The notes under the pieces: model-generated
Told to the model about the DNA's origin: nothing
Database searches by the model: none
What the model saw: the letters and a program-made list of their open reading frames with translations, nothing else
Shown: piece by piece, positions 7,924 through 36,899 of the stretch
Layout of the letters: every line of letters starts with the position of its first letter
Numbering within the stretch: position 1 is the first letter of the stretch
Virus record (IMG/VR): IMGVR_UViG_3300009838_000002
Coordinates: 1 to 54,154 of that record
From: a virus
Direction: 5' to 3' (one strand)
Length of the DNA: 54,154 bases
Made by a program: the position numbers and the translations under genes

Positions 7924-9468
7924 TTATAATCCCTTCCGAAGAATGAATCCGTTTACATAGACCAATGCTGTTGCTGTTACCTCTCCGCCCACCCTTCCAT
8001 AAAGCGTTCCCGACAAAAGTGGTATCATTCCGCTTCCGTATCCATAATTATTATTGGACGCATCAACCGGAACTCGTGCGTTTATCTGGCTCGCAGATGG
8101 AGTATTATTATTGTTCAAGTCAGCCCAAGCCTGTAATGTTCCTCCGGCAAGCCTGTAGGCTTCAAGCGTGAAAATTCCGCAGTCTCCTATCGCCGGAATG
8201 GCCGCCGAATAGGTAATGGCGGTAAAAGCCCCAGAATTTATCGTTGGAGCGCATGTCTGAGGATCGTCATAGATGGACGTATAGTCAACTTGATTAAATG
8301 GAATAAAGTTGGAATATCCGTCGTTTCTTGCCGCCCCAACAAGGGTATAGTAAGTAAATCCAGAAGGTAGTGTTGGAACCAAACTTGCCGATATTAGCGA
8401 TGCCCACGTAGTAGTAACTGGGTTGTAGATAAAAAACAGGTAATACCACGTGTTTGGCGCTTCAGACCCTGTATCCAAACCATTGGTTCCCGACACCTCT
8501 ATATCTGCAGTCAGGGCAAGACTAGGAGTATTTGCGACACTATTAAGGAATACCTGGTTTGACGCAAGAGAAATCTCGTGCGCGGAGGTAGTTTTTATCC
8601 TGAGTCCATTTACTACCGGGGCGTAGTTAAATATTGGAAGCGCAAGAGGCTTAAAAATAGCGTTCCCCGTGGCGGTGTCCTTTGTTAGAAGATCCTCATT
8701 CCCGGCCCCGGCCACGGAGGTTAGCGAATCAATGGCGTCCTGCGCCGTGGTTTGCCCCGTTCCTCCTCTCGCTATTGAGGTAACGGGAATAGTCTGCATA
8801 GTAGGCAAAGCTCCGGCCCCGTTGGAAGTCAAAACCTGCCCTGCGGTTCCAAGAGAAGCTATGGCCTGAAGCACTCCTGTTCCCGTAGCTCCTCCGCACA
8901 GAACAGCATAAGGAGTAAACGCCCCGACTCCGGTTCCTCCTCTTGAAACGGGAAGATAAGACGTTGGATCTATCTGTTCGTACTCAAGACTCCAGATGGT
9001 GTAGTCCACCGGTCCCGCCCCAGCCCCTCCATAAACCGCCGAGAGAGTAAGTTCGCCGTCATTGACAACATTAAGGACTTTGTAGGTTGTTCCCGGAACG
9101 GCGTTTATTTTGAATAAGTCGTCTTTTGCTACGGTCGAAAGCCAAGCGGTTCCAGCGCCAATGACGGTTGCCGATCCGTTTACCACCGTCGCGTGTCCCG
9201 CAAAGGCCGCCGGGTTCGCAAAGTATCCCGCCTTGGTGTCGGTAGTAAAGATATGCTGTCCGTCTGGAGGGGCTACTGGGGCCAGGGCTTCCGCGACATA
9301 ATACGTTCTGGAGGCCGCCGGTTTGTGAAGGCAATCAGTTGCCGCCGCGCCAGGGAAAGTATGTTCCATGTCAAGCGCGGTATCGAGGTATGTTTTGTCA
9401 TACCTGTTCTGCGCCGGGAAGATGTTCTTCGCCGAGGTGTCGGTGGGTTTACTTAAATCCCAAGCCAT
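7924..9468 (-). CDS. Tail fibre / receptor-binding protein (514 aa)
   Basis: Repeated fibre-type motifs VSRGGTGVGAF and IARGGTGQTTAQDAIDSL; AAGGAGGAC RBS at 9472-9480. Confidence 0.65.
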   Translation of the reverse strand: MAWDLSKPTDTSAKNIFPAQNRYDKTYLDTALDMEHTFPGAAATDCLHKPAASRTYYVAEALAPVAPPDGQHIFTTDTKAGYFANPAAFAGHATVVNGSATVIGAGTAWLSTVAKDDLFKINAVPGTTYKVLNVVNDGELTLSAVYGGAGAGPVDYTIWSLEYEQIDPTSYLPVSRGGTGVGAFTPYAVLCGGATGTGVLQAIASLGTAGQVLTSNGAGALPTMQTIPVTSIARGGTGQTTAQDAIDSLTSVAGAGNEDLLTKDTATGNAIFKPLALPIFNYAPVVNGLRIKTTSAHEISLASNQVFLNSVANTPSLALTADIEVSGTNGLDTGSEAPNTWYYLFFIYNPVTTTWASLISASLVPTLPSGFTYYTLVGAARNDGYSNFIPFNQVDYTSIYDDPQTCAPTINSGAFTAITYSAAIPAIGDCGIFTLEAYRLAGGTLQAWADLNNNNTPSASQINARVPVDASNNNYGYGSGMIPLLSGTLYGRVGGEVTATALVYVNGFILRKGL

Positions 9469-9478
9469 TTAGTCCTCC

Positions 9479-9507
9479 TTGACCTTTAAAGGTTCTTGTG
9501 TTATAAT
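9479..9507 (+). promoter_or_regulatory. Sigma70-type promoter for tnpB: TTGACC-N17-TGtTATAAT
   Basis: -35 at 9479-9484, extended -10 TGTTATAAT at 9499-9507, 17-nt spacer containing the 12-bp palindrome ACCTTTAAAGGT (9482-9493). Confidence 0.55.
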
Positions 9508-10650
9508 AAACTTGTGCATAAGAACTTTAAATTTAGACTCTATCCAACAAAAAAACAATGCGGTCTTCTGCTGAATACTCTTAGAGAATGTTGCTGGCTT
9601 TATAATTATTTTCTCGATCAGAGAAAGACGGCATGGGAAGAACGAAAAGAATCTCTTGGGTTGTACGATCTCCACCGAAGACTTCCGTCCTTGAAGCTCT
9701 CTCGACCTTCCCTGAAAGGGGTTCATAGCCAAGTTCTTCAGAATGTCGCCCTTAGAATAGACTTGGCTTTTCAATCCTTCTTCCGAAGAGTAAAAGCAGG
9801 AGAAGCCCCTGGTTATCCTCGCTTTCGAGGGAACAACGGATACGACAGTTTTACTTTTCCTCAAGGATCGCCAAACGGAGGGTTTAAAATAACAAAAAGG
9901 GGTCTTAGAATTTCCAAGATAGGAACTGTCAAGGCCGCCTTTCATCGTCCTGTCGAAGGGAAAATAAAGACCTGTTGCATTAGACTCGAAAGATCCGGAA
10001 AGTGGTTCGCTACTTTCTCCTGTGTAGGCGAACCCAATCTTCTTCCAGAATCTATTAAACAGGTTGGAATAGATGTTGGACTGATTAACTTCGCCACGCT
10101 CTCTACAGGAGAAGTAATTGAAAATCCCCGCTTTTTCCGCAAAGAAGAGAAGGCGCTGGCTAATGCTCAACGCAAATTGTCGAAGGCAGAGAAGGGAACC
10201 CTTGAAAGGGCAAAGGCGCGCAAAGTAGTTTCTCGCATTCACGAGCGTATAACCAATAAGCGCACAAACTTTGCTCATCAGGAATCCAGAAAAATAATCA
10301 ATCGCTTTGGGGTGATTTCCGTGGAGGACATCCAAAGCAACCGGATTGTTCACAATCGCTGTCTTGCCAAGAGCATTATGGATGCGGCATGGGGACAATT
10401 CATCGCATATCTTTCCTGCAAAGCTGCAAACGCTGGCAGAAAATTCATTGCCGTGAATCCCGCCTACACCACTCAGGATTGTCACCGGTGCGGACACAGG
10501 CAGAAGCTCTCCCTCTCCGAGAGAGAGTATTCCTGTCCCTGCTGCGGACTCGTCATGAACCGCGATCATAATGCCTCCCTTAATATTCTAGCCTTGGGAT
10601 TACAAGGCTTGGGTATCCAATCCCTAGAAGCCGCTTTCTTGGCGGAGTAA
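9484..10650 (+). mobile_element. IS200/IS605-family TnpB-only (non-autonomous) element; boundaries inferred to within a few nt
   Basis: The only plus-strand gene in the minus arm. Removing 9484-10650 leaves stop-GTCAAGGAGGACTAA-ATG between the flanking late genes. TTGAC immediately precedes the left end. Confidence 0.6.
9514..10650 (+). CDS. tnpB: TnpB RNA-guided endonuclease (RuvC-like plus zinc finger), apparently intact
   Basis: KFRLYPT N-terminus; GIDVGL (D), ISVEDI (E), NRDHNAS (D); CHRCG...CPCCG zinc finger. The start is either GTG 9514 or TTG 9496. Confidence 0.85.
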   Translation: MHKNFKFRLYPTKKQCGLLLNTLRECCWLYNYFLDQRKTAWEERKESLGLYDLHRRLPSLKLSRPSLKGVHSQVLQNVALRIDLAFQSFFRRVKAGEAPGYPRFRGNNGYDSFTFPQGSPNGGFKITKRGLRISKIGTVKAAFHRPVEGKIKTCCIRLERSGKWFATFSCVGEPNLLPESIKQVGIDVGLINFATLSTGEVIENPRFFRKEEKALANAQRKLSKAEKGTLERAKARKVVSRIHERITNKRTNFAHQESRKIINRFGVISVEDIQSNRIVHNRCLAKSIMDAAWGQFIAYLSCKAANAGRKFIAVNPAYTTQDCHRCGHRQKLSLSEREYSCPCCGLVMNRDHNASLNILALGLQGLGIQSLEAAFLAE

Positions 10651-11607
10651 TCACGCATTTGCAATTCCTCTCGCCCCTGTCTTTGGCACAAGAAGTTCAA
10701 TGTCGCCGGTGGTTTTCTGCTGGTAGTGCATCCTGAGTTGCTGAAGCGCTGCCTGGAATTTTGCTTCATGGGCTTGTTCTTTTGCCGTCTCTCCACTCCA
10801 GTTGAACAGTTCGGCCAGCGCCCCGTCTATCAGAATGTGAGGGTAAGTCACCGTCAGGTAGTTTGTTGGGTTTGACGCCGGATCGAGATCGAGGAGGTTC
10901 TTTTTCACCATCGCTATCGCAACGAGGGTCGGAGTTGTGGGGATGGGCGCAAAACGCAGAAGCGTCCCGTTGGCGTTGTCGTAGAATATCACCTTAGTCG
11001 GATCTCCTGTCGCGAAATACGAGGAGTCTGAGAAGAAATTCTGTTCAGCGCCTATTGCAAGCTCATCGGAATATGTTCCAAGCGTAGGATCGTATTTTTT
11101 GGCCCACCTGATCTTCTGGATGAATTCCTTGTTTGCGAGAACGTCTCCATGAACCGGATACTCACTCTGGCCGGGAGTTATGACGAGCCATCCCTGATAC
11201 AACCATCCGTCGTTGCGAGTCAGGGAACAATCAATGGTTGAAGGGGAAGAAACCGTGGGGCCGGCGTAGGGAGTAGTGAGCGTGATAGTTGTGTCGGCTG
11301 GAACCGCCAATACGGTGTAAACCGCACCAGCAGTAGTCCAGAACTTATCTCCGATCTGGGCCGTAGTGAGCCAGTTAGTACCGACTCCAGTAACCGTAGG
11401 AGAAGAGTTTATAACCGTGCATTTCTCAATGACCGGAATAAGCGACGTCTGGGCCGACGGGTAGATGTCGAGAAACCAGAAAGGGAAATACTCGCAGAGC
11501 ATCCTCTGTCTCTTGTTAATCCATTCCGTTACGGTAGCAACGGCAGTGGCGTCGTCAGAGGCCCCTCCCTGTCGTAGAATTGAAGTTTTAAGCTGAGTGA
11601 GGTTCAT
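10651..11607 (-). CDS. Hypothetical virion protein (318 aa), possible head-tail adaptor by position
   Basis: ORF track; its stop abuts the tnpB stop (TAA|TCA); the ATG overlaps the upstream stop. Confidence 0.5.
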   Translation of the reverse strand: MNLTQLKTSILRQGGASDDATAVATVTEWINKRQRMLCEYFPFWFLDIYPSAQTSLIPVIEKCTVINSSPTVTGVGTNWLTTAQIGDKFWTTAGAVYTVLAVPADTTITLTTPYAGPTVSSPSTIDCSLTRNDGWLYQGWLVITPGQSEYPVHGDVLANKEFIQKIRWAKKYDPTLGTYSDELAIGAEQNFFSDSSYFATGDPTKVIFYDNANGTLLRFAPIPTTPTLVAIAMVKKNLLDLDPASNPTNYLTVTYPHILIDGALAELFNWSGETAKEQAHEAKFQAALQQLRMHYQQKTTGDIELLVPKTGARGIANA

Positions 11608-11915
11608 TACTTACCACCACCCTTCTTTCCCTTGTTCTTCGGAACGAAGTCTTTGTCGTCGGGAAGGACTTCGGAAAGGATGTCTTCAACCTGCGCCGGA
11701 GTCGGCTCTTCCTTTGCAAGAGGATTGTTGGAGAACTGGTAAGTCTTTACCGGGTGGCCTGGAGAAGCATATCCCAAAGGAACGCCATCCTCTATTCTTC
11801 CGATAGGAGATCGGCTGTTTGGAGCGTGTCCATCGTAGATAAGCCCCGCCTGGGTAAGAGTGGGTTTCAGATCCTTTCCTCCATGAAGTTCATGCGGCTT
11901 CCGTTTGTCGAACAT
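11607..11915 (-). CDS. Hypothetical protein (102 aa) with basic K/G tail
   Basis: ORF track; ends ...PKNKGKKGGGK; RBS AAGGAGGATG upstream of the ATG at 11915. Confidence 0.55.
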   Translation of the reverse strand: MFDKRKPHELHGGKDLKPTLTQAGLIYDGHAPNSRSPIGRIEDGVPLGYASPGHPVKTYQFSNNPLAKEEPTPAQVEDILSEVLPDDKDFVPKNKGKKGGGK

Positions 11916-11939: not shown

Positions 11940-12338
11940 TTAATCAAAAAGTTCATAGAAGCATAGCCCAAGGCATCCGGTAACATTAGGGAGAGAAAAT
12001 GCCTGATCGGCTGTCTTTCTTATGAACAAATTTCCATCGTTGCATTTCAAAGAAGTATCCATCGTGAGGCTATACTCCGGACTGACAATCGTTATTCCGG
12101 CAGGAATATTAACCGGGTCTATCGTGAATCTAACAAGCTGAATTGCTCCCGTTAGCTGAATGTCAAATTCTATAGGATCGCTTGAAACCAAGTCGTTTTC
12201 AGATATAAAATAAAGCCATTTAAGACGGAACTTGCGTGGAAAGCGATACAGGAATTTAAAGCCCGCCGTAGTTAAGTCCATCTTAAACGGGACAAATTCC
12301 GTTATAAGGGACATATATCTATCGTGTAATGCGCCCAT
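11940..12338 (-). CDS. Paralog 3 of a tandem triplet downstream of the capsid gene (132 aa)
   Basis: N-terminus MGALHDRY...FRFPRKF and C-terminus ..CFYELFD, shared with the two upstream genes. Confidence 0.6.
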   Translation of the reverse strand: MGALHDRYMSLITEFVPFKMDLTTAGFKFLYRFPRKFRLKWLYFISENDLVSSDPIEFDIQLTGAIQLVRFTIDPVNIPAGITIVSPEYSLTMDTSLKCNDGNLFIRKTADQAFSLPNVTGCLGLCFYELFD

Positions 12339-17599: not shown

Positions 17600-19900
17600 C
17601 TATCTGAATCTGTAGCTTGGAGTTATTTCTTTGCCTTGAAAAGGGCTTTCTCGCGTCGTGGGAGCCCCGGTTTCGAGGTAATTTATGACGGTAAATTGAA
17701 GACAATCCTGGCAGTTGTGAACCATTATTCCGTTGGCGGGGAAGTTGTGGTATTTTTCTACTTCTAAGTTATAGACATCCTCAAATCCAAAAGGAGTAAT
17801 GCTTATTACTTTGTGGTTGTGGAACGAAGTCGCCTTTCCTCTTCTTTTTCTTGAAGTCATCCTCCAAAGGCAGGATTGAGAGCAATACATCTGCTTTGGA
17901 GTTCCTTGGTATTTTTCTCCGCATCCTTCACATATTTTTTCAATTCTACTCGCGTCAATAAATGCTCTCATGCTTTTCCCGACTTTATCTCTACTCTCTT
18001 GTGTCCAAGGATTTAGGCTTTTGCCTGGAGAATTTTTGACAAATTCTTTTACGTTTTTTCTTAGACTATTTATCCTTGTAATCTCGTGTTCTTTTTTACT
18101 TAATAGCATCAGGTTTTCCGGGTTGTTGTTTCTTCCATTTCCGTCTATGTGATGAATAATTGATCCCTTATTGTCGAATCCACCGAACCAATGCCATATG
18201 TAGTGATGCTCATAAGTAAAGCTGCCGTCGTTAAGCTCTATAGAAGTATGTCCAGTTGTTTTTACGTTTTCATAGAGCGGCATCAGCGAGTCTCCCCCTT
18301 TAAGATCGCGCAATGCCCTATAAGATCCGTCTCGCATCATAATTAAGTGATCTGGGGTGGCTATTATTTCTCCGTTGTCGTATGTCAATTTCCAAACCTC
18401 TGCGTTCTCTCTTGTCTTGCGGACTCCAGTTGCCTTCGCGGGAATAAGTCTTTTGTGCTCTTCTGAGTAGGCATAGGTGTAAAATTCTTGTCCCACAAGT
18501 TCTTTTATTGGCTTCCAGCCATTCAGAGTCCTAACCAACGAGCTTCCGGACAGGCAATGCTCATAATACGAATCGGCGGCTGGATGGCGTTTTTCGGCTT
18601 CATTCTTCGGTTCTTTGGCCCAAACATAGCCGTCTTCCATTCCCTCAATGAGTATCGGGCAATATCTTCCGTCTATCTGCAATGCAGGCTTTCCAGACAC
18701 CATGCGGTTTAACATGGCCACTACTTTTCCAATGCGATATTCATAGGTGGCTTTCTTGAATTTGGGCGACAAATTGAACGGAGGGTTTTTCATAATGTCC
18801 AGCCTGGTCTTCTCGCTCAAGTCTGACTTCATCACTCCCTGGGAGTCGCAACAGTCCACAAAGTCAAAGTCGGCGAACCAATCCAGGCTTCGCTCAAGGC
18901 CAAGTTCCAGGAAGCGCTCTATTTGAATTTTCTCCGGCATGAACTCGCGAAGGACGTTGAGTCTGTTTCCGGGGAGTCGCTGAGAAAAAAGAAGCGCCGG
19001 CCGATGGTAGCCAAAATCCCATGATCGAATGATCGGGAAGTCGTATTCTGGTTTTAAGCCTTCTCCTGAAACGTGAGTTTCCTTGTTGAATGTCCCGTGA
19101 TAAACCGGATCGCCGTAAATATCAGAACCCCATTCTCCAAGAACGTATCGCTTGTAGAGCGAAGGAGAATGGGCATATTGGCGCTTAATGGTTTCTTTGT
19201 ATCGTTCAGAAACATAAGGAACGTCGTCTATCGAGGCAGAGAAAACAAAAAAACCTTCGGTTCTTTCTTTCTCAAACCTCTTGAATAGCCAATGCCCTTT
19301 ATTCGGAGGGTTTGTCATGAGAAGGCACCACCAAGGGTATCCGTCTCCTTGCCTTCCAATTCTTCCAAGGGCGGTGTCGAAGTATAGTTCTGCAAGTTCA
19401 TTGGCTTCTTCAAATACTGCGAATGAAAGAGGAAGGCCGCCGAGCTTAGCGGCCATGTCGCTTGATCTGAAAAGGACTCTGGACCTGTTTGGAAATAAAA
19501 CCCAGTCTTCTTTTTTGTTTTCTTTGAATGGAATATTGCTTTCTTGTAGGTCCTGAATGAACTCTGCGCGTATCGAATCCCCCATCTCGCGGTAGGTCTT
19601 GCGCCCGATCATTCCTTGTATTCCGGGGTATTTGCGGCACGTTTCTTTAACAACGTCTATTGCAAGTGCTGTCTTTCCGGTGTGCAATGCGCCCTTGAAA
19701 AGAACCACATTTGGCGAACCTGAACTCGGGGCGTAAAGCCTATCTTTTACTTTCTGCTGAATTTCTCCGTGGACTCGATCCTTCGAGTTGTCATACTCTT
19801 CCATCTCCACCTGAGACTGCATAATGTCGGCCATCTGCTGAAACATTATCTCTTCAGGAGAAGGGAAGCGCCCGCCCTGGATCTGGACAGTCTCTTTCAT
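17600..19900 (-). CDS. terL: Terminase large subunit, interrupted by an in-frame intein
   Basis: Walker A GALHTGKT; Walker B LSFAVFEEA. The nuclease motif is split as ..ADSYYEH | intein | CQDCLQF..; the exteins total 485 aa. Confidence 0.85.
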   Translation of the reverse strand: MKETVQIQGGRFPSPEEIMFQQMADIMQSQVEMEEYDNSKDRVHGEIQQKVKDRLYAPSSGSPNVVLFKGALHTGKTALAIDVVKETCRKYPGIQGMIGRKTYREMGDSIRAEFIQDLQESNIPFKENKKEDWVLFPNRSRVLFRSSDMAAKLGGLPLSFAVFEEANELAELYFDTALGRIGRQGDGYPWWCLLMTNPPNKGHWLFKRFEKERTEGFFVFSASIDDVPYVSERYKETIKRQYAHSPSLYKRYVLGEWGSDIYGDPVYHGTFNKETHVSGEGLKPEYDFPIIRSWDFGYHRPALLFSQRLPGNRLNVLREFMPEKIQIERFLELGLERSLDWFADFDFVDCCDSQGVMKSDLSEKTRLDIMKNPPFNLSPKFKKATYEYRIGKVVAMLNRMVSGKPALQIDGRYCPILIEGMEDGYVWAKEPKNEAEKRHPAADSYYEHCLSGSSLVRTLNGWKPIKELVGQEFYTYAYSEEHKRLIPAKATGVRKTRENAEVWKLTYDNGEIIATPDHLIMMRDGSYRALRDLKGGDSLMPLYENVKTTGHTSIELNDGSFTYEHHYIWHWFGGFDNKGSIIHHIDGNGRNNNPENLMLLSKKEHEITRINSLRKNVKEFVKNSPGKSLNPWTQESRDKVGKSMRAFIDASRIEKICEGCGEKYQGTPKQMYCSQSCLWRMTSRKRRGKATSFHNHKVISITPFGFEDVYNLEVEKYHNFPANGIMVHNCQDCLQFTVINYLETGAPTTRESPFQGKEITPSYRFR
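17714..18556 (-). other. Intein (281 aa, residues 449-729 of TerL) carrying an HNH endonuclease and a zinc ribbon
   Basis: Starts at Cys (TGC 18556-18554; CLSGSSLV), has TPDH block B, ends ..GIMVHN (AAC 17716-17714) and is followed by Cys+1. Internal HHIDGNGRNNNPENLMLLSKKEHE and CEGCGEKY..YCSQSC. Confidence 0.85.
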
Positions 19901-33064: not shown

Positions 33065-33269
33065 AGAGGACGTAAGGATAGGCCACGTTTATGCCGTGAA
33101 AGTCTCCGGCAAGATCGTTCCCGTCCGCATAACCCGCAAGTCAGACATGGGCGGCTGGGTGGGCATAAGCCTTGAGACGGGCCGGGACGTGCGGATCAAG
33201 ACGGCGGGGAAGCTGAGAAGCGAAGTTTTTGTGGCGGAAAAGATCCTGTCAGAGAAGGAGGCCCAATGA
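33057..33269 (+). CDS. Hypothetical protein (70 aa)
   Basis: ORF track; overlaps its neighbours by a few nt. Confidence 0.5.
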   Translation: MRKEDVRIGHVYAVKVSGKIVPVRITRKSDMGGWVGISLETGRDVRIKTAGKLRSEVFVAEKILSEKEAQ

Positions 33270-34312
33270 ACATCCTCGATCACTGCGAGATCATAGGAAG
33301 CACCAGCGACGACGAACATTCAAACGCCCGTTGGCTGGAATTAAGAACTCACGGCATAGGGGGAAGCGAAGTCGCGGCTTTGGCTGGCTTGAACCCCTGG
33401 AAGAGTCCGCTTGCCGTCTATTTAGAAAAGACTGGGCAGGGAATGGAAACCCCCGACAATGAAGCGATGGAGGCTGGGCGCGACTTGGAGCCCGTGATCC
33501 TCAAGAGACTTCAGAGAAACCTCCCGAAGCTGGCCGAGATGGGAGTTAATACCGACGGCCTGCCAACCAACGGGATCGTTGTGCCGGGATCAGCTCTCTA
33601 TCGCTCCAGCGATCACCCGCTTATGCTGGCCACCCTAGACGGATTTCTGTGTGACGCAGATAACCCGGAAACCGGGATCTTCGAAAACACGCTGTCCCAT
33701 GAACCCATTGCCGGGATCGAAGCCAAAACCTGCGGCGAGAGATCGGCCCACCAATGGGACGAAGGCGTTCCCGACTACTACCTGACCCAAGTCTATCACT
33801 ACATGGCCGTAACTGGCCTGCGGATCTTCCTCGTTCCCGTCCTGATCGGCGGCAGAGAGTTCAAAGTCTTCCGGGTGGACTATGATGAGGAAGTCTGCAA
33901 CCGCCTGATCGAACTGGAGGAGAAGTTTTGGAAGGATCACGTCCTTGCAAGAGTTCCTCCAATGGCCGGATCATGTGATCGAACAGCCCTTGACTTTATG
34001 TTCCCTGCGTCCTCAACGAAGCCAGAACCCGTCTCCCTGCCGGACGAAGCAGAAGCTATATTACAAGCCTTCCTCCGGGCCAGGGAGGAAGAAAAAGCGC
34101 AGGGGTTAGCCAAAGACTGCGCGGCCAACCGCTTGAAGCAAATGATGGGCGATGCGGAGACAGCATTTTGCGGGACAGAAAGGATCAGTTGGAAGGCGCA
34201 GGTTACAAAGCGATTAGACTCCGACAGGCTGAAGCGCGAAAGGCCGGAGATCGTGAAGGAATTTACCGTCGAAAAGGCCAGCCGAGTTTTCAGGGTAGCT
34301 GAAAACAAGTGA
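33266..34312 (+). CDS. YqaJ-like recombination exonuclease (348 aa)
   Basis: WLELRTHGIGGSEVAALAGLNPWKSPLAVY, characteristic of YqaJ/lambda-exo-type nucleases. Confidence 0.75.
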   Translation: MNILDHCEIIGSTSDDEHSNARWLELRTHGIGGSEVAALAGLNPWKSPLAVYLEKTGQGMETPDNEAMEAGRDLEPVILKRLQRNLPKLAEMGVNTDGLPTNGIVVPGSALYRSSDHPLMLATLDGFLCDADNPETGIFENTLSHEPIAGIEAKTCGERSAHQWDEGVPDYYLTQVYHYMAVTGLRIFLVPVLIGGREFKVFRVDYDEEVCNRLIELEEKFWKDHVLARVPPMAGSCDRTALDFMFPASSTKPEPVSLPDEAEAILQAFLRAREEEKAQGLAKDCAANRLKQMMGDAETAFCGTERISWKAQVTKRLDSDRLKRERPEIVKEFTVEKASRVFRVAENK

Positions 34313-34324
34313 GGAGGAGAGACA

Positions 34325-35809
34325 ATGCTAAACAGGGTTGAAATTCGCAACGTACTGGGGATCGAACTAAGAGAAGTGGACTTCGACAAGATCAATATCC
34401 TTGTCGGAGACAACGGCACAGGGAAAACTTCCTTTCTGGAAGCCCTGGAAAAACTGTTCACAAACGGCGAGAGAAGGGCCAATTTCATCCGCACCGGATC
34501 CGACACAGCTTCCATCCATGCGGAAATGACGGTGGACGGAAAGAGTGTCATAGCCGACAAAACTTTCAAACGCGCCGGAAAAGACACAACGAAGCTGAAA
34601 ATTGAGGGCGACGTTCAGCGCGGCCCGGAGACGCTTCTCAAAGAACTTATCGGGATCGGCAAGTATTCCTTCAGCCTGAACCCGGTTGACTTCGTTGAGG
34701 CAGACTCCAAGGAACAGGTGGAGATCCTGCTGTCGCTTATGAAGATCGAACTCTCTCCGGAGAAGATCAAGGAGTGGTGCGACGGAGAATTCCCGGCCGT
34801 AAACCTCAAACAAAACCCCCTCCAGGTTTGCCGTGCCTTGACGGAACTCTACTACAACCGCAGGCATCAAGCCAACGCAGACGCCAAGGCGTTGAACGAT
34901 CAGTCTGAGGCATTGACGGCGCAACTGCCCGACAACTACGATCCCGAGGAGTGGAGAGAACTTCAGCTTCGGGACAAATACGAAGAGCTGCACATGGCAG
35001 AGCAGATCAATGCGAATCGGGAGAAGGCCGCCTCTGTCGTTGCCGGCCAGGACGCAGAGATAGCCCTTCTGCGCCAGCAGGCCGACAAGGAGAAGGCCGA
35101 GGACGCTTCTGTTTCCAGAATACAGATCGCGGACCTGGAAGAGAAGATCGAAAAACTCATGGCGCAGATCATTGAACTCCAAAACCAGCAGAAAACCCTT
35201 GAGTCCAACATTGCTACCGAGGCCGCCATTGTGGACTCCAAGACGGAGGAAAAGATCGCCGCGGTTATCGAAAAGTCAAAGAAGGCAAAGGAATACCTCG
35301 ATAGACAGCCCGCCATTGACACCGCGCCCATGAAAGCCGAGGCAGAAGAGGCCGAGAGGATGAAGGGCTTCGTCCAGATCGCAGATCAGGCCACGCAGGC
35401 CAGAACGAAAATGGCCCTCATAGAAGAACTCGCACGGCAGGCCGACGAAAAAGTAACCTTCTTCCGGCAGTTGCCGCATCAGCTTTTTAGGACCGCCGAG
35501 AAGCCCATTACGGGCATGGATGTTGACGACGAAGGGAACGTCACTCTCCCGAATCTGAAGGGCGAACAACAGCCGCTTCAAAATCTTAGTCAGGGAGAAC
35601 AGATCCTCGCCGCCATACAGATCGCAGAGGCGACAAGCGGCCCTCTTGGCATAATTCTGGTGGACGAATTCCAGAGACTCGACGACACAAACCAGCGCGT
35701 CTTTATTGAGGCGGCACAGAAAAGCAAATACCGCTTCGTGCTGACGGCGACAAAGGTTGCGGATGGAATTGCCAGCCAGGACGGCGTAAAAGTTCTGGCT
35801 ACAAAGTAG
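34325..35809 (+). CDS. SMC/RecF-like AAA ATPase with long coiled-coil insert (494 aa)
   Basis: Walker A GDNGTGKTS at the N-terminus, Walker B GIILVDEFQRLD near the C-terminus, coiled-coil in the middle. Confidence 0.7.
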   Translation: MLNRVEIRNVLGIELREVDFDKINILVGDNGTGKTSFLEALEKLFTNGERRANFIRTGSDTASIHAEMTVDGKSVIADKTFKRAGKDTTKLKIEGDVQRGPETLLKELIGIGKYSFSLNPVDFVEADSKEQVEILLSLMKIELSPEKIKEWCDGEFPAVNLKQNPLQVCRALTELYYNRRHQANADAKALNDQSEALTAQLPDNYDPEEWRELQLRDKYEELHMAEQINANREKAASVVAGQDAEIALLRQQADKEKAEDASVSRIQIADLEEKIEKLMAQIIELQNQQKTLESNIATEAAIVDSKTEEKIAAVIEKSKKAKEYLDRQPAIDTAPMKAEAEEAERMKGFVQIADQATQARTKMALIEELARQADEKVTFFRQLPHQLFRTAEKPITGMDVDDEGNVTLPNLKGEQQPLQNLSQGEQILAAIQIAEATSGPLGIILVDEFQRLDDTNQRVFIEAAQKSKYRFVLTATKVADGIASQDGVKVLATK

Positions 35810-35831
35810 CAGAAAGAGGAGGAGGCAAACA

Positions 35832-36899
35832 ATGAAAAACAATGAGGATCTGAAGGGAACTGAGCTCGCTGTCAGAGAGGTGGCTCTCCCGGCCCCGGTA
35901 GGGGTCTATGACGTGAACCGAAGCCTGGAACTTCACCGGATCGCCTGTAAACTGTTTCAGTCAGGTCTTTTCCCTAACGCCAAAAGCGAGGCTGGCGCCT
36001 TCGCCATCGTAGAGTATGGGGACGAACTCGGGGTGCCGCCAATGATCGCCCTCCAAAACATCAACAACATTCAGGGAAAACTCAGCACCGGCGCACAGCT
36101 TATGTTGGCCCTGGCTATGCGGCGCGGGGTTGAGTATCAGATCGTCGAAGAGTCGGAGGAAACCTGCCATATCCATTTCACGCGGGGGGCCGCAGTTGTG
36201 GAGTCTATCTTCACGATCAAAGACGCGCAAAGGGCGGGGCTCGTCAGGCAGAACTCTCCATGGGCAACTGCCCCAGCGACAATGCTGTTCCACCGGGCCG
36301 CTTCAAGAGGCGTCCGCAAGATCGCCCCGGACGCCGTGACGGGCCTTCTGCTGGACGATGAAGCCAGAGAGATCGCCCCGGAACCTTCTTCGGTGAATGA
36401 GGCCGCCAACGGACTGAAAGAGGCTCTGAAGAAACACGCAGACGAGGAGATCGCCAAAGCTGAGTCGCAGTTCAAGGCAGAGACGGAGAGGAGTCTGGCG
36501 GGCAAGTCCCCGGATCCTGGATCCGAGAAGCCCGTCCTGCCGCCGACTCCAAGAGTTCCTGCGCCGAACGCCTCACCAGTCCCGCCCAAAGTCAAGGCGC
36601 CCGAAGCCCCAAAAGTCGAGAAGCCAGGGAACGGAACGCCTGAGACGCCCCCGACCATTGCCCCTGAAACACTCGAAGCCCTCAAGGGCGTCTATGCGAT
36701 AAGCCGCAAGGCCGGAATCCCCAAAAACGAAGTTTTAGCCGCGATGCAGGAAATCGTTCCGATGGCCGCTTCTTTGGACGATCTGGAGAAGTGGGGCGCG
36801 GACGAATTAAACAGGCTACAGGGATCTCTCACGTTCGTCGCCGAGGGAAAAAAGAAAGTTAAGGCGCCTACAGTTCCCTTCCCGGACGAGTTGGCATAA
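35832..36899 (+). CDS. recT: RecT-like single-strand annealing protein with P-rich C-terminal extension (355 aa)
   Basis: GDELGVPPMIALQNINNIQGK.. and DAQRAGL..SPWATAPATMLFHRAASRGVRKIAPD; adjacent to the exonuclease. Confidence 0.6.
   Translation: MKNNEDLKGTELAVREVALPAPVGVYDVNRSLELHRIACKLFQSGLFPNAKSEAGAFAIVEYGDELGVPPMIALQNINNIQGKLSTGAQLMLALAMRRGVEYQIVEESEETCHIHFTRGAAVVESIFTIKDAQRAGLVRQNSPWATAPATMLFHRAASRGVRKIAPDAVTGLLLDDEAREIAPEPSSVNEAANGLKEALKKHADEEIAKAESQFKAETERSLAGKSPDPGSEKPVLPPTPRVPAPNASPVPPKVKAPEAPKVEKPGNGTPETPPTIAPETLEALKGVYAISRKAGIPKNEVLAAMQEIVPMAASLDDLEKWGADELNRLQGSLTFVAEGKKKVKAPTVPFPDELA

What the first reader, a model, noticed from the sequence alone, without database searches (positions are those of the whole stretch)
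9479..10675. Intact TnpA-less TnpB element inserted scarlessly, on the opposite strand, between two late structural genes
What the sequence shows:
- A 1.17-kb plus-strand unit interrupts an otherwise unbroken 29-kb minus-strand virion operon.
- The TnpB ORF keeps the RuvC D/E/D residues (GIDVGL, SVEDI, NRDHNAS) and the CxxC..CxxC zinc finger, so it looks active. No TnpA is present anywhere in the genome.
- Deleting 9484-10650 recreates a normal compact junction on the minus strand: gcaaatgcgTGA-GTCAAGGAGGACTAA-ATG (stop, SD, start).

What follows from this:
- The predicted empty site on the plus strand is CCTCCTTGAC|TCACGCATTTGC.
- TTGAC (9479-9483) then sits where a TAM is expected, and 10651 onward would be the guide-matched flank.
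- The omega-RNA scaffold would overlap the tnpB 3' end. Local hairpins there include GCCTTG-N6-CAAGGC at 10591-10608.
- The -35 of the tnpB promoter is built from the flank plus the element end.

In a phage, such an element could act as an RNA-guided homing endonuclease against IS-free co-infecting relatives. Late transcription must also read through 1.2 kb of antisense tnpB.
Basis: partly seen in the sequence, partly recalled or inferred. Interest (0 to 1): 0.8.

Follow-up and report, generated by a model that had tools for sequence, protein, structure and literature searches.

The report
Left-end-less TnpB element with two-way reading frame
A phage tail-gene operon carries an apparently working RNA-guided nuclease gene (TnpB) that has lost the end it needs to jump, and this gene, like its relatives, is kept free of stop codons on its reverse strand, a feature so far described only in some RNA viruses.

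Summary
The TnpB gene is real and looks intact. It has the Pfam domains, the ISDra2 catalytic D/E/D residues and zinc finger, its own promoter, and a structured 3' end supported by covariation.

- The right end is ...GGAGTAATCAC at 10654, not 10650. The neighbouring adaptor gene's TGA stop codon is therefore element DNA.
- TTGAC is the element's internal -35 box, not the TAM. The family TAM is TTTAC/TTAY.
- The roughly 75-110 nt left end with its hairpin is missing. The copy is neither intact nor scarless and cannot be moved by TnpA.

The predicted guide is GCATTTGCAATTCCTC (10655-10670). The inferred ancestral junction is GCAAATGC(G/A)-TAA-ATGGCT. No insert-free relative of the phage could be found, so homing remains untested.

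Unexpected result: across 33 related copies (Chloroflexota genomes plus metagenome and viral contigs), the codon-aligned antisense frame of tnpB is kept open. TTA/CTA/TCA codons number 10 against 173 expected, with no sign of amino-acid constraint. In this phage that frame forms a 366-codon ORF with a ribosome-binding site and ATG. Its stop codon abuts the start of the next tail gene, so it could carry translation across the insert.

The parts
9514..10650 (+). tnpB, 378 codons. GTG start at 9514, only 6 nt after the -10 box, so the mRNA is probably leaderless. TAA stop at 10648-10650.
   Evidence: Pfam domains. End-to-end alignment to ISDra2 TnpB 8bf8 (E 6e-59) with D191/E278/D361 and the zinc finger conserved. 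N-terminus MHK..F.YRLYP matches homologues of 366-380 aa.
9479..9507 (+). tnpB promoter: TTGACC, 17 nt, TG-extended TATAAT. This is element DNA, not flank or TAM.
   Evidence: 11 of 12 consensus match. The same TTGACY-17-TAnAAT-6-start layout occurs inside the left part of relatives.
9468..9478 (.). Non-canonical left junction. TTTA (9468-9471) is the likely remnant of the TAM TTTAY and reads TAA plus the A of ATG on the minus strand. GTCCTCC (9472-9478) reads GGAGGAC on the minus strand and is the ribosome-binding site of the 514-aa gene. The left-end hairpin that should lie here is missing.
   Evidence: Relatives have TTTAC/TTAY followed by 75-110 nt containing the hairpin GAAAGCCCC..GGGGAT upstream of the -35 box. 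The window has 10 nt between the neighbour's ATG and the -35 box.
10591..10608 (+). Hairpin SL-a of the right end / omega-RNA scaffold: GCCTTG, GGATTA, CAAGGC.
   Evidence: Six pairs, five with compensatory changes across 28 relatives, 98.8% of cells paired.
10611..10624 (+). Hairpin SL-b: GGG, 8-nt loop, CCC.
   Evidence: The outer pair covaries (GC in 19, CG in 7, UA in 1 sequences).
10630..10646 (+). Hairpin SL-c, the subterminal right-end hairpin: GCCGC, tttcttg, GCGG. It is weaker here than in relatives.
   Evidence: Seven pairs in the family model, four with compensatory changes, 90% of cells paired. The window's own fold contains it.
10644..10654 (+). Right-end terminus GGAGTAATCAC. The element ends at 10654. 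It contains the tnpB stop codon (TAA) and, on the minus strand, the TGA stop codon of the adaptor gene (10653-10651).
   Evidence: GGAGTAxTCAC is conserved in 76 loci, with unrelated flanks immediately after it. It occurs once in the window.
10655..10670 (+). Predicted omega-RNA guide and target-matching flank, GCATTTGCAATTCCTC. This is the antisense of the last codons of the adaptor gene.
   Evidence: It lies directly 3' of the conserved right-end terminus. It is unique in the window. The 16-nt guide length is assumed by analogy with ISDra2 and was not tested.
9469..10569 (-). Antisense ORF of 366 codons, codon-aligned with tnpB. ATG at 10569-10567, preceded by GGGAGG 4 nt upstream. TAA stop at 9471-9469, directly abutting the ATG (9468) of the next late gene.
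   Evidence: ORF list. Called as a gene in the public assembly. P = 3e-4 under the phage's synonymous codon usage. The same open frame occurs in 33 related loci.
10651..11607 (-). SU10-type head-tail adaptor gene. The third base of its last codon and its stop codon are supplied by the element's right end.
   Evidence: Pfam SU10_adaptor 6e-12. Junction sequence.
7924..9468 (-). Downstream late gene (514 aa, no Pfam family). Its start codon abuts the antisense ORF's stop codon.

Best explanation
The insert (about 9472-10654) is a tnpB-only element of the IS200/IS605 family (IS1341 type) from a lineage common in Chloroflexota.

How it got there (inferred):
- It landed on the strand opposite to the late operon, exactly at the adaptor gene's stop codon.
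- The family TAM TTTAY reads RTAAA on the other strand, and the right-end terminus ...GTCAC reads GTGAC. The insertion therefore swapped a TAA stop for a TGA stop without changing the adaptor protein.
- Later the left end (TnpA-binding hairpin, about 75-110 nt) was lost. The copy can no longer be excised or transposed.

What remains (shown): a promoter, a probably leaderless and catalytically intact tnpB, and a right-end/omega-RNA module with three covariation-supported hairpins.

What it would do (inferred from the established TnpB mechanism):
- TnpB bound to an omega-RNA carrying the guide GCATTTGCAATTCCTC cuts TTTAY-GCATTTGC... junctions, which exist only in insert-free relatives.
- Cutting would either copy the insert into them by recombination or eliminate them.
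- The resident copy is protected because the right end replaces the TAM.

The reverse strand:
- Shown: selection keeps the reverse strand of tnpB free of in-frame stop codons across this lineage (an 'ambigrammatic' gene).
- Inferred: in this phage the result is an ORF with its own ribosome-binding site and ATG that ends on the TAA next to the following gene's ATG. Ribosomes could then cover the 1.1 kb of antisense RNA and hand over to the tail gene, limiting polarity.
For: - TnpB identity and integrity.
- Right-end terminus and flank divergence in 76 loci.
- Three right-end hairpins: 95.2% of cells paired against 37-61% when partners are slid; covariation score 0.48 against 0.13 in shuffles, with 0 of 500 shuffles reaching it.
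- Internal promoter conserved in relatives.
- TAM TTTAC/TTAC/TTAT defined from multi-copy genomes.
- Left end absent in the window and also in L088.
- A convergent gene ends on the right-end TGA in the window, L088, L090, L096 and, by the spacing of the called genes only (no DNA held), P0036. Overall 15 of 76 loci have at least 80 open codons in that frame.
- The guide sequence is unique in the genome.
- A recombination module is present (YqaJ, weak RecT).
- Antisense frame: 10 observed against 173 expected TTA/CTA/TCA codons. Control codons are near expectation. The same trinucleotides number 544 and 439 in the other two phases. Outgroup clades show 140 against 116 expected.
- Of 33 loci, 23 have zero and 9 have one antisense stop in the first 340 codons.
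- The His codon of RDHNAS is CAT in the window and the six closest relatives read (L087, L088, L091, L094, L096, plus L089, a second contig of the L088 copy), giving an antisense ATG.
Against: - No insert-free allele or related phage was found, so the ancestral junction, the order of events and homing are all inferred.
- There are no expression data for the omega-RNA, TnpB or the antisense ORF.
- Rfam gave no omega-RNA match.
- The window's terminal hairpin has only about 4 base pairs.
- Only the last 75 nt or so of the presumed scaffold shows covariation. Those hairpins could equally serve TnpA as single-stranded DNA.
- Across the wider clade, elements are not enriched in the antisense-within-operon orientation (4 loci flanked '-,-' against 7 flanked '+,+'). 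This weakens the anti-polarity reading.
- The antisense ATG lies 81 nt from the adaptor stop codon, so coupling at that end is not tight.
Confidence: 0.6

Rival explanations
1. One reading: an intact element spanning 9484-10650, inserted scarlessly 3' of a TTGAC TAM, with the guide starting at 10651 and the empty site CCTCCTTGAC|TCACGCATTTGC.
For: TTGAC resembles the ISDra2 TAM TTGAT (from memory). Deleting 9484-10650 does give a readable stop, ribosome-binding site and start on the minus strand.
Against: TCAC is the conserved last four bases of the right end in 76 loci. TTGACY is the internal -35 box at fixed spacing in relatives that carry a further 75-110 nt of left end. TAMs defined from multi-copy genomes are TTTAC/TTAC/TTAT.
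Confidence: 0.04
2. Inert passenger: a recently acquired, immobilised copy on its way to decay. TnpB and the omega-RNA do nothing for the phage, and the ORFs are intact only because too little time has passed.
For: The left end is lost and the copy is single. The terminal hairpin is weaker than in relatives. No close relatives exist to show purifying selection, and the public contig that was retrieved and compared is identical to the window.
Against: The ORF is full-length with all catalytic and zinc ligands, a near-consensus promoter and every right-end hairpin retained. The left junction looks reworked rather than randomly damaged, with a ribosome-binding site and a stop-start abutment for the next gene. 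A second left-end-less copy with the same layout exists in an unrelated contig (L088).
Confidence: 0.2
3. The antisense ORF is a by-product of codon bias or chance and has no selective meaning.
For: Long frame -0 ORFs occur in other genes of this phage, with open runs up to 302 codons. The antisense protein has no family and only one weak homologue. Its start and ribosome-binding-site-like sequences derive from conserved TnpB residues.
Against: The depletion is 17-fold, specific to the three codons and to the codon phase, absent from flanking genes of the same loci and from outgroup tnpB clades, and repeated in 33 loci whose synonymous sites are near saturation.
Confidence: 0.05
4. The antisense ORF encodes a protein whose sequence matters: a true overlapping gene, for example a regulator of the element or a virion component.
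For: It has a start codon, a ribosome-binding site and operon-style junctions. Gene callers prefer it to tnpB.
Against: Codon identity at conserved four-fold sites is no higher than in outgroup clades (0.32-0.38 against 0.32-0.33 at 50-65% amino-acid identity). Antisense proteins are about 32% identical where the TnpBs of this clade are about 55-68% identical. The C-terminal end point varies from 3 to 354 nt beyond the tnpB start and reaches 453 nt in L090, sometimes running into flanking DNA.
Confidence: 0.1
5. Domesticated nuclease: the phage keeps TnpB and its omega-RNA for its own benefit against a target other than its own empty site, such as a host or competitor locus.
For: The copy is immobilised yet expressed-looking. 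Phage-encoded nucleases used in competition are known (review PMC13565253).
Against: The guide is simply the adjacent adaptor-gene sequence, as in any unmodified element. The only other exact matches to the first 18 bases of the guide-side flank, in viral contigs, lack a TAM and share no flank, so they are chance hits.
Confidence: 0.08

Closest known systems
ISDra2 TnpB / omega-RNA (IS200/IS605 family, OMEGA systems; PDB 8bf8, 8ex9, 8h1j)
   Same: - The proteins align end to end (E 6e-59) with identical RuvC D/E/D residues and zinc finger.
- The guide RNA scaffold overlaps the tnpB 3' end and the right end, and the guide is the adjacent flank.
- The expected role is cutting the vacated or empty site (Karvelis 2021, PMC8612924; preprint 10.1101/2023.11.20.567912, both listed).
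   Different: - No tnpA.
- The protein is 378 aa rather than 408 aa, and its stop codon lies 4 nt from the transposon end, so the whole scaffold sits inside the coding region.
- The TAM is TTTAY rather than TTGAT.
- The left end is deleted.
- The antisense frame is kept open.
IS1341-type tnpB-only elements with 3' sense-overlapping RNAs (PMC4615843)
   Same: Both are tnpB-only elements with a non-coding RNA at the 3' end of the gene, mobilised only in trans.
   Different: This copy lacks the left end needed even for mobilisation in trans. It sits in a phage late operon.
Ambigrammatic narnaviruses (PMC6884476, PMC8316113, PMC8155312)
   Same: - A codon-aligned (frame -0) reverse ORF spans almost the whole forward gene.
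- It is produced by avoiding UUA/CUA/UCA.
- It is conserved across divergent relatives without evident constraint on the reverse protein sequence (the abstract of PMC8155312 reaches the same conclusion for narnaviruses).
   Different: Those are eukaryotic RNA viruses whose gene is an RdRp. Here the gene is a DNA transposon nuclease in bacteria and phages, and the reverse ORF is read from a host or phage operon transcript. No report for TnpB or any bacterial transposon was found.
Free-standing homing endonucleases of phages (for example T4 SegF; reviewed in PMC13565253)
   Same: A nuclease gene sits between conserved phage genes and is expected to cut relatives that lack it, spreading by recombinational repair or excluding competitors.
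   Different: Target recognition here would be by guide RNA plus TAM rather than by protein. Self-protection comes from the insert replacing the TAM.
TldR (nuclease-dead TnpB-like repressors)
   Same: Both are immobilised TnpB relatives that keep a guide RNA.
   Different: TldRs have lost the catalytic residues. Here D/E/D are intact, so this is not a TldR.

Membership tests
IS200/IS605 family, tnpB-only (IS1341-type) element | TnpB ORF with HTH, OrfB_IS605 (RuvC) and zinc-ribbon domains | tested here: met
   Pfam E-values 3.5e-10, 1.3e-22 and 1.5e-23, all above the gathering scores.
IS200/IS605 family, tnpB-only (IS1341-type) element | Right end with a subterminal hairpin and a conserved cleavage terminus shared with mobile copies | tested here: met
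   GGAGTAATCAC ends at 10654, matching 76 loci that include multi-copy genomes. Hairpins are supported by covariation.
IS200/IS605 family, tnpB-only (IS1341-type) element | Left end with a subterminal hairpin immediately 3' of the target/TAM | tested here: not met
   Relatives have TTTAC/TTAY plus 75-110 nt with a hairpin before the -35 box. The window has only 10 nt between the neighbour's ATG and the -35 box.
IS200/IS605 family, tnpB-only (IS1341-type) element | Y1 (HUH) TnpA available in the same genome | tested here: not met
   No Y1_Tnp family among the listed Pfam families when 110 ORFs of at least 100 aa were scanned. 25 of 37 matched families were shown, and the unlisted ones are weaker than E = 1.5e-5. 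ORFs shorter than 100 aa were not scanned.
IS200/IS605 family, tnpB-only (IS1341-type) element | More than one copy, or empty sites, as evidence of mobility | tested here: not met
   Single copy in the window. No empty site was found. Relatives in bacterial genomes are multi-copy.
OMEGA TnpB / omega-RNA nuclease | RuvC D-E-D catalytic triad and CxxC..CxxC zinc finger | tested here: met
   Aligned to ISDra2 D191, E278 and D361 and both cysteine pairs.
OMEGA TnpB / omega-RNA nuclease | Conserved structured RNA scaffold overlapping the tnpB 3' end and ending at the transposon boundary | tested here: inconclusive
   Three hairpins in the last 65 nt or so are supported by covariation. However, they could act as single-stranded DNA for TnpA, nothing upstream of them was resolved, and Rfam gave no match.
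OMEGA TnpB / omega-RNA nuclease | TAM-dependent, guide-dependent cleavage of double-stranded DNA | not testable with these tools
   Needs a biochemical or in vivo interference assay.
Ambigrammatic gene (as defined for narnaviruses) | Codon-aligned reverse ORF covering nearly the whole forward ORF | tested here: met
   366 of 378 codons in the window. Between 330 and 494 codons in most of the 33 relatives.
Ambigrammatic gene (as defined for narnaviruses) | Avoidance of TTA/CTA/TCA beyond codon-usage expectation, conserved across divergent relatives | tested here: met
   10 observed against 173 expected, specific to the codon phase (10 against 544 and 439), and absent in outgroups.
Ambigrammatic gene (as defined for narnaviruses) | Translation of the reverse ORF | not testable with these tools
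   Only a ribosome-binding site, an ATG and operon-style junctions are seen.
TldR (nuclease-dead TnpB-like repressor) | Loss of RuvC catalytic residues | tested here: not met
   D/E/D are intact.

The most novel reading that the evidence does not exclude
This TnpB lineage has evolved an ambigrammatic gene. Selection removes every stop codon from the codon-aligned reverse frame so that ribosomes can translate straight across the element when it sits backwards inside an operon. Together with a TAM and right-end pair that replaces the upstream gene's TAA with TGA, this would make insertions at gene ends nearly harmless. It would allow the nuclease to become a fixed resident of phage and bacterial operons, as seen in the window, L088, L090, L096 and P0036. 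It would be the first ambigrammatic gene outside narnaviruses, and a new way for a transposon to reduce its cost to the host.
Probability: 0.35. Interest if true: 0.85.

Novelty: new variant of a known kind. Interest (0 to 1): 0.6.

Why it matters
A TnpB gene in a phage is not new in itself. Three things here are worth knowing.

1. This is an immobilised copy that still looks functional, with a fully specified predicted target (TAM TTTAY plus GCATTTGCAATTCCTC). RNA-guided homing or competitor exclusion between phages becomes directly testable.

2. The family inserts at TAA stop codons of convergent genes and restores the stop from its own end. That explains how such elements persist inside compact operons.

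3. A whole clade of tnpB genes is kept stop-free on the reverse strand. The only described parallel is the ambigrammatic narnaviruses, whose reverse ORF is still unexplained. A bacterial DNA example, with a testable rationale (avoiding polarity on downstream genes), offers a tractable system for that open question.

There is also a practical consequence. Gene callers pick the antisense ORF here, so this TnpB is missing from protein databases.

Tried and rejected
- Rfam scan of 9300-10900 at E up to 10 gave only three chance-level hits and no omega-RNA family.
- Searches for relatives of the phage or an empty site all failed. These were GenBank phages by blastn; IMG/VR with the adaptor and portal proteins; a protein search with the adaptor, which found only itself; and two metagenome DNA scans, one with the flank and one with the predicted empty junction.
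- An 18-mer from the guide-side flank matched two IMG/VR contigs. They share no flank and have no TAM, so they are chance hits.
- The public contig that was retrieved and compared (ENA, L086) is 100% identical to the window, and the other contigs carrying these proteins were not shown separately, so no polymorphism is available for dN/dS.
- Is the antisense protein itself under selection? Codon identity at conserved four-fold sites is not elevated relative to outgroups, and only one weak homologue exists. The idea of a sequence-constrained overlapping protein was rejected.
- Are clade members preferentially antisense to their neighbours? Not in the 25 genome loci. Five of the seven closest relatives with context are antisense, but the sample is too small to decide.
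- TTTAC at 9450-9454 was considered as the true TAM, with the neighbour's N-terminus lying inside the left end. This was rejected because no left-end hairpin follows it and the spacing does not fit.
- A hairpin at 9428-9447 lies on the wrong side of that TTTAC.
- Terminator-like sites on the minus strand inside the insert are weak. The total for both strands of 9000-11800 is 6 against 3.3 +/- 1.7 in shuffles, which is not above the shuffle range.
Full report
**What is at the coordinates.** The plus-strand ORF 9496-10650 (most likely starting at GTG 9514) encodes a TnpB. It carries the three Pfam domains HTH_OrfB_IS605, OrfB_IS605 and Cas12f1-like_TNB. It lies between two minus-strand genes: 7924-9468 (514 aa, no family) and 10651-11607 (SU10-type head-tail adaptor). 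The window is a phage genome. It encodes a portal, an adaptor, a terminase, an M15 peptidase, a replication protein O, RusA and a YqaJ exonuclease. From about 2.4 kb to 25 kb the long ORFs run on the minus strand. The public assembly of the same phage calls every gene in this region on that strand.

**Integrity of TnpB.** The protein aligns over residues 2-369 with ISDra2 TnpB (PDB 8bf8, 8ex9, 8h1j; E 6e-59). GIDVGL, SVEDI and NRDHNAS fall on D191, E278 and D361, and both CxxC pairs align. TTGACC-17-TATAAT, with a TG extension, lies at 9479-9507. The -10 box is 6 nt from the GTG, as in relatives, so the mRNA is probably leaderless. No Y1 transposase family appeared among the listed Pfam families when 110 ORFs of at least 100 aa were scanned.

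**Relatives.**
- The protein has thousands of homologues, the best at 60-69% identity.
- Genome hits are mostly Ktedonobacteraceae and other Chloroflexota. More distant ones are in Latescibacterota and Armatimonadota. This suggests, as an inference, a Chloroflexota host.
- Multi-copy genomes define the element ends. Identical copies in one Chloroflexia genome (L014, L015, L020) share DNA from 111 nt upstream of the start to 16 nt beyond the stop. Other groups behave likewise.

**Right end.**
- In 76 loci the element ends with GGAGTAxTCAC, and the flanks are unrelated from the next base on.
- The window has GGAGTAATCAC ending at 10654. In many relatives, as here, the tnpB stop codon is the TAG/TAA inside this motif, 4 nt from the end.
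- The boundary is therefore 10654, not 10650. The adaptor gene's TGA (10653-10651 on the minus strand) and the third base of its last codon are element DNA.
- An alignment of 28 right ends (A1) gives three hairpins with abundant compensatory change. 95.2% of cells are paired, against 37-61% when partners are slid. The covariation score is 0.48 against 0.13 in shuffles, and 0 of 500 shuffles reach it.
- These are the expected right-end/omega-RNA module. The data cannot tell whether they act as RNA, as single-stranded DNA for TnpA, or both. Rfam has no matching family.

**Left end.**
- Relatives read TAM, then about 17 nt, then a hairpin (GAAAGCCCC...GGGGAT), then a spacer, then TTGACY-17-TAnAAT-6-start codon.
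- The conserved base run immediately 5' of the shared DNA is TTTAC in Chloroflexia copies, and TTAC or TT(T)AT in others.
- The window's TTGACC aligns with the internal -35 box, not with the TAM.
- Only 10 nt separate the -35 box from the neighbouring gene's ATG. The left end is therefore missing.
- A copy without it cannot be excised or inserted by a TnpA supplied in trans (established IS200/IS605 mechanism; my knowledge).
- L088 is the only one of the seven closest relatives with flanking context that also lacks the left end (65% identity, in an unrelated virus-like contig). It too lies between same-strand genes on the opposite strand.

**Reconstruction of the insertion (inference).**
- With the TAM TTTAY to the left of 10655, the empty site on the minus strand would read GCA AAT GC(G/A) TAA. 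This gives the same ...A-N-A C-terminus of the adaptor, with a TAA stop.
- The right end replaces TAA with TGA.
- The left flank still reads CATTTA (9466-9471), which is TAA-ATG on the minus strand. A plausible ancestral junction is therefore GCAAATGC(G/A)-TAA-ATGGCT, with the stop abutting the next start.
- Such abutting junctions also occur at 12338/12339 and 4945/4946 in this operon.
- The same use of the right-end TGA by a convergent gene is seen in L088, L090 and L096, and is implied by the spacing of the called genes at the P0036 locus, for which no DNA was held. Overall, 15 of 76 loci have at least 80 open codons in that frame.
- No insert-free relative could be found to test this.

**Predicted activity (inference from the known TnpB mechanism; PMC8612924 and 10.1101/2023.11.20.567912, listed).** The guide would be the flank starting at 10655 (GCATTTGCAATTCCTC), which is unique in the genome. 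The target would be TTTAY followed by that sequence, a combination present only in genomes lacking the insert. The resident copy has AATCAC in place of the TAM. The phage encodes a YqaJ exonuclease and a weak RecT-like protein, so repair from an insert-bearing co-infecting genome is plausible.

**The antisense frame in the window.**
- The minus strand carries a 366-codon ORF (10569-9469) in codon register with tnpB.
- Public gene callers annotate this ORF, and the TnpB protein is absent from the 15-billion-protein collection.
- Its ATG is preceded by GGGAGG 4 nt upstream. Its TAA abuts the ATG of the 514-aa gene.
- tnpB has no TTA, CTA or TCA codon in its first 352 codons but three in the last 25. 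The probability is 3e-4 under the phage's own synonymous usage.

**The antisense frame across the clade.**
- In 26 related loci at 53-62% TnpB identity to the window copy, these three codons occur 10 times in the first 350 codons. Synonymous usage in flanking ORFs predicts 173.
- Control codons are near expectation: ATA 63/61, GTA 85/109, GCA 119/109.
- In the 27 loci including the window, the same trinucleotides occur 544 and 439 times in the other two phases.
- Outgroup clades show no depletion (140 observed against 116 expected).
- With six further close relatives added, 23 of 33 loci have no antisense stop in the first 340 codons, and 9 have one.
- Synonymous sites are not otherwise constrained.
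- The antisense proteins are poorly conserved, and their C-terminal ends vary.
- Selection therefore acts on openness, not on the protein sequence.
- In the window and the six closest relatives read (one of them, L089, a second contig of the L088 copy), the His codon of RDHNAS is CAT. This gives an antisense ATG behind a GAGG.

**Closest parallel for the antisense frame.** The only described parallel is the ambigrammatic narnaviruses. They also avoid UUA/CUA/UCA to keep frame -0 open (PMC6884476). Their reverse ORF appears not to encode a conserved protein (PMC8155312), yet it must be translated (PMC8316113). I found no report of this for TnpB or any bacterial transposon.

**How the antisense frame may work (hypothesis).**
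- When the element sits backwards at the end of a gene inside an operon, the operon transcript contains about 1.2 kb of antisense tnpB.
- Untranslated, that stretch would expose the RNA to Rho-dependent termination and decay. Downstream genes would then suffer polarity.
- An internal ribosome-binding site and ATG, followed by a stop-free frame that ends at the next gene's start, would prevent this.
- Consistent observations:
  - In the window the antisense stop abuts the next ATG.
  - In L088 the antisense stop lies 8 nt past the next ATG.
  - In L090 the frame runs 494 codons and ends in a 4-nt overlap with the next gene.
  - In L096 its tail is called as a gene.
- Five of the seven closest relatives with context lie antisense between same-strand genes.
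- Against the hypothesis: the wider clade shows no orientation bias, and nothing shows translation.

**Comparison and novelty.**
- By protein and right end, this is a member of the IS200/IS605 tnpB-only group and of the TnpB/omega-RNA nucleases.
- It fails the left-end test, so it should be filed as an immobilised derivative rather than an intact IS.
- It is not a TldR, because the catalytic residues are intact.
- Its likely behaviour is that of a free-standing phage homing endonuclease that uses an RNA guide.
- The ambigrammatic reverse frame and the stop-codon-neutral insertion geometry are, to my knowledge and from the searches above, undescribed for this family.

**Caveats.**
- All functional statements are inferred from sequence.
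- Expected codon counts come from stop-to-stop ORFs in the flanks rather than curated genes.
- The clade's loci are related to one another. However, their synonymous sites are near saturation.
- The order of events (insertion, then left-end loss) and the origin of 9472-9478 cannot be resolved without an empty site.

Noticed in passing
window 9469-10569 (minus); loci L001-L032, L069, L087-L096: The codon-aligned antisense frame of tnpB is kept free of stop codons across a clade of copies found in Chloroflexota genomes and in metagenome and viral contigs. TTA/CTA/TCA codons number 10 against 173 expected, while the other two phases carry 544 and 439. There is no extra synonymous constraint. The only known parallel is the ambigrammatic narnaviruses.
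   Followed up: yes
window 9469-10569; L086 6900-8000: Public gene calls annotate the antisense ORF (366 aa, no family) instead of tnpB. As a result this TnpB is absent from the 15-billion-protein collection, although both neighbouring proteins are present.
   Followed up: yes
window 10651-10654; L088 2891-2894; L090 4132-4135; L096 4077-4080: The right-end terminus TCAC supplies the TGA stop codon of the convergent upstream gene in several unrelated loci. The TAM TTTAY is the complement of RTAAA, so insertion at a TAA stop is silent for that gene. In 15 of 76 loci at least 80 open codons end on this TGA.
   Followed up: partly
L088 1692-2894 (ENA ERZ27247769 k141_66943): A second left-end-less tnpB (65% identical) sits antisense between same-strand genes of an unrelated virus-like contig. 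Even the antisense stops inside the right-end hairpins are removed, leaving 408 open codons. The frame ends 8 nt past the next gene's ATG.
   Followed up: partly
window 17600-19900 (minus): The large terminase subunit carries an intein with an HNH endonuclease domain (residues about 463-729). This is a second homing-type selfish element in the same late operon.
   Followed up: partly
window 33266-36899 (plus): The region holds a YqaJ-like exonuclease, an AAA/SMC-like ATPase and a weak RecT-family hit. Together they form a recombination module that could support homing by repair.
   Followed up: no
window 9502-9516; relatives L014, L094 and others: The -10 box lies 6 nt from the tnpB start codon and there is no ribosome-binding site, both here and in relatives. 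This suggests leaderless tnpB mRNAs in this clade.
   Followed up: partly
window 10567-10569; L087, L088, L091, L094, L096: The RuvC-III motif reads RDHNAS (His instead of the usual Leu/Glu) in the closest subclade, and the His codon is always CAT. This creates the antisense ATG behind a GAGG.
   Followed up: partly
alignment A1 columns 112-114 with 208-210 (window about 10562-10564 with 10650-10652): RNAalifold pairs the GAY of the RD(x)N codons with the GTC/ATC just before the terminal AC. This could be a long-range closing helix or pseudoknot of the omega-RNA. Two of the three pairs are invariant, so there is little covariation evidence.
   Followed up: no
L091-L093 (JGI/ENA contigs, P0017): A 64%-identical tnpB lies in the same orientation as all its neighbours in phage-like contigs from three samples. 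The next gene's start overlaps the tnpB stop by 4 nt, so the right end would lie inside that gene.
   Followed up: no
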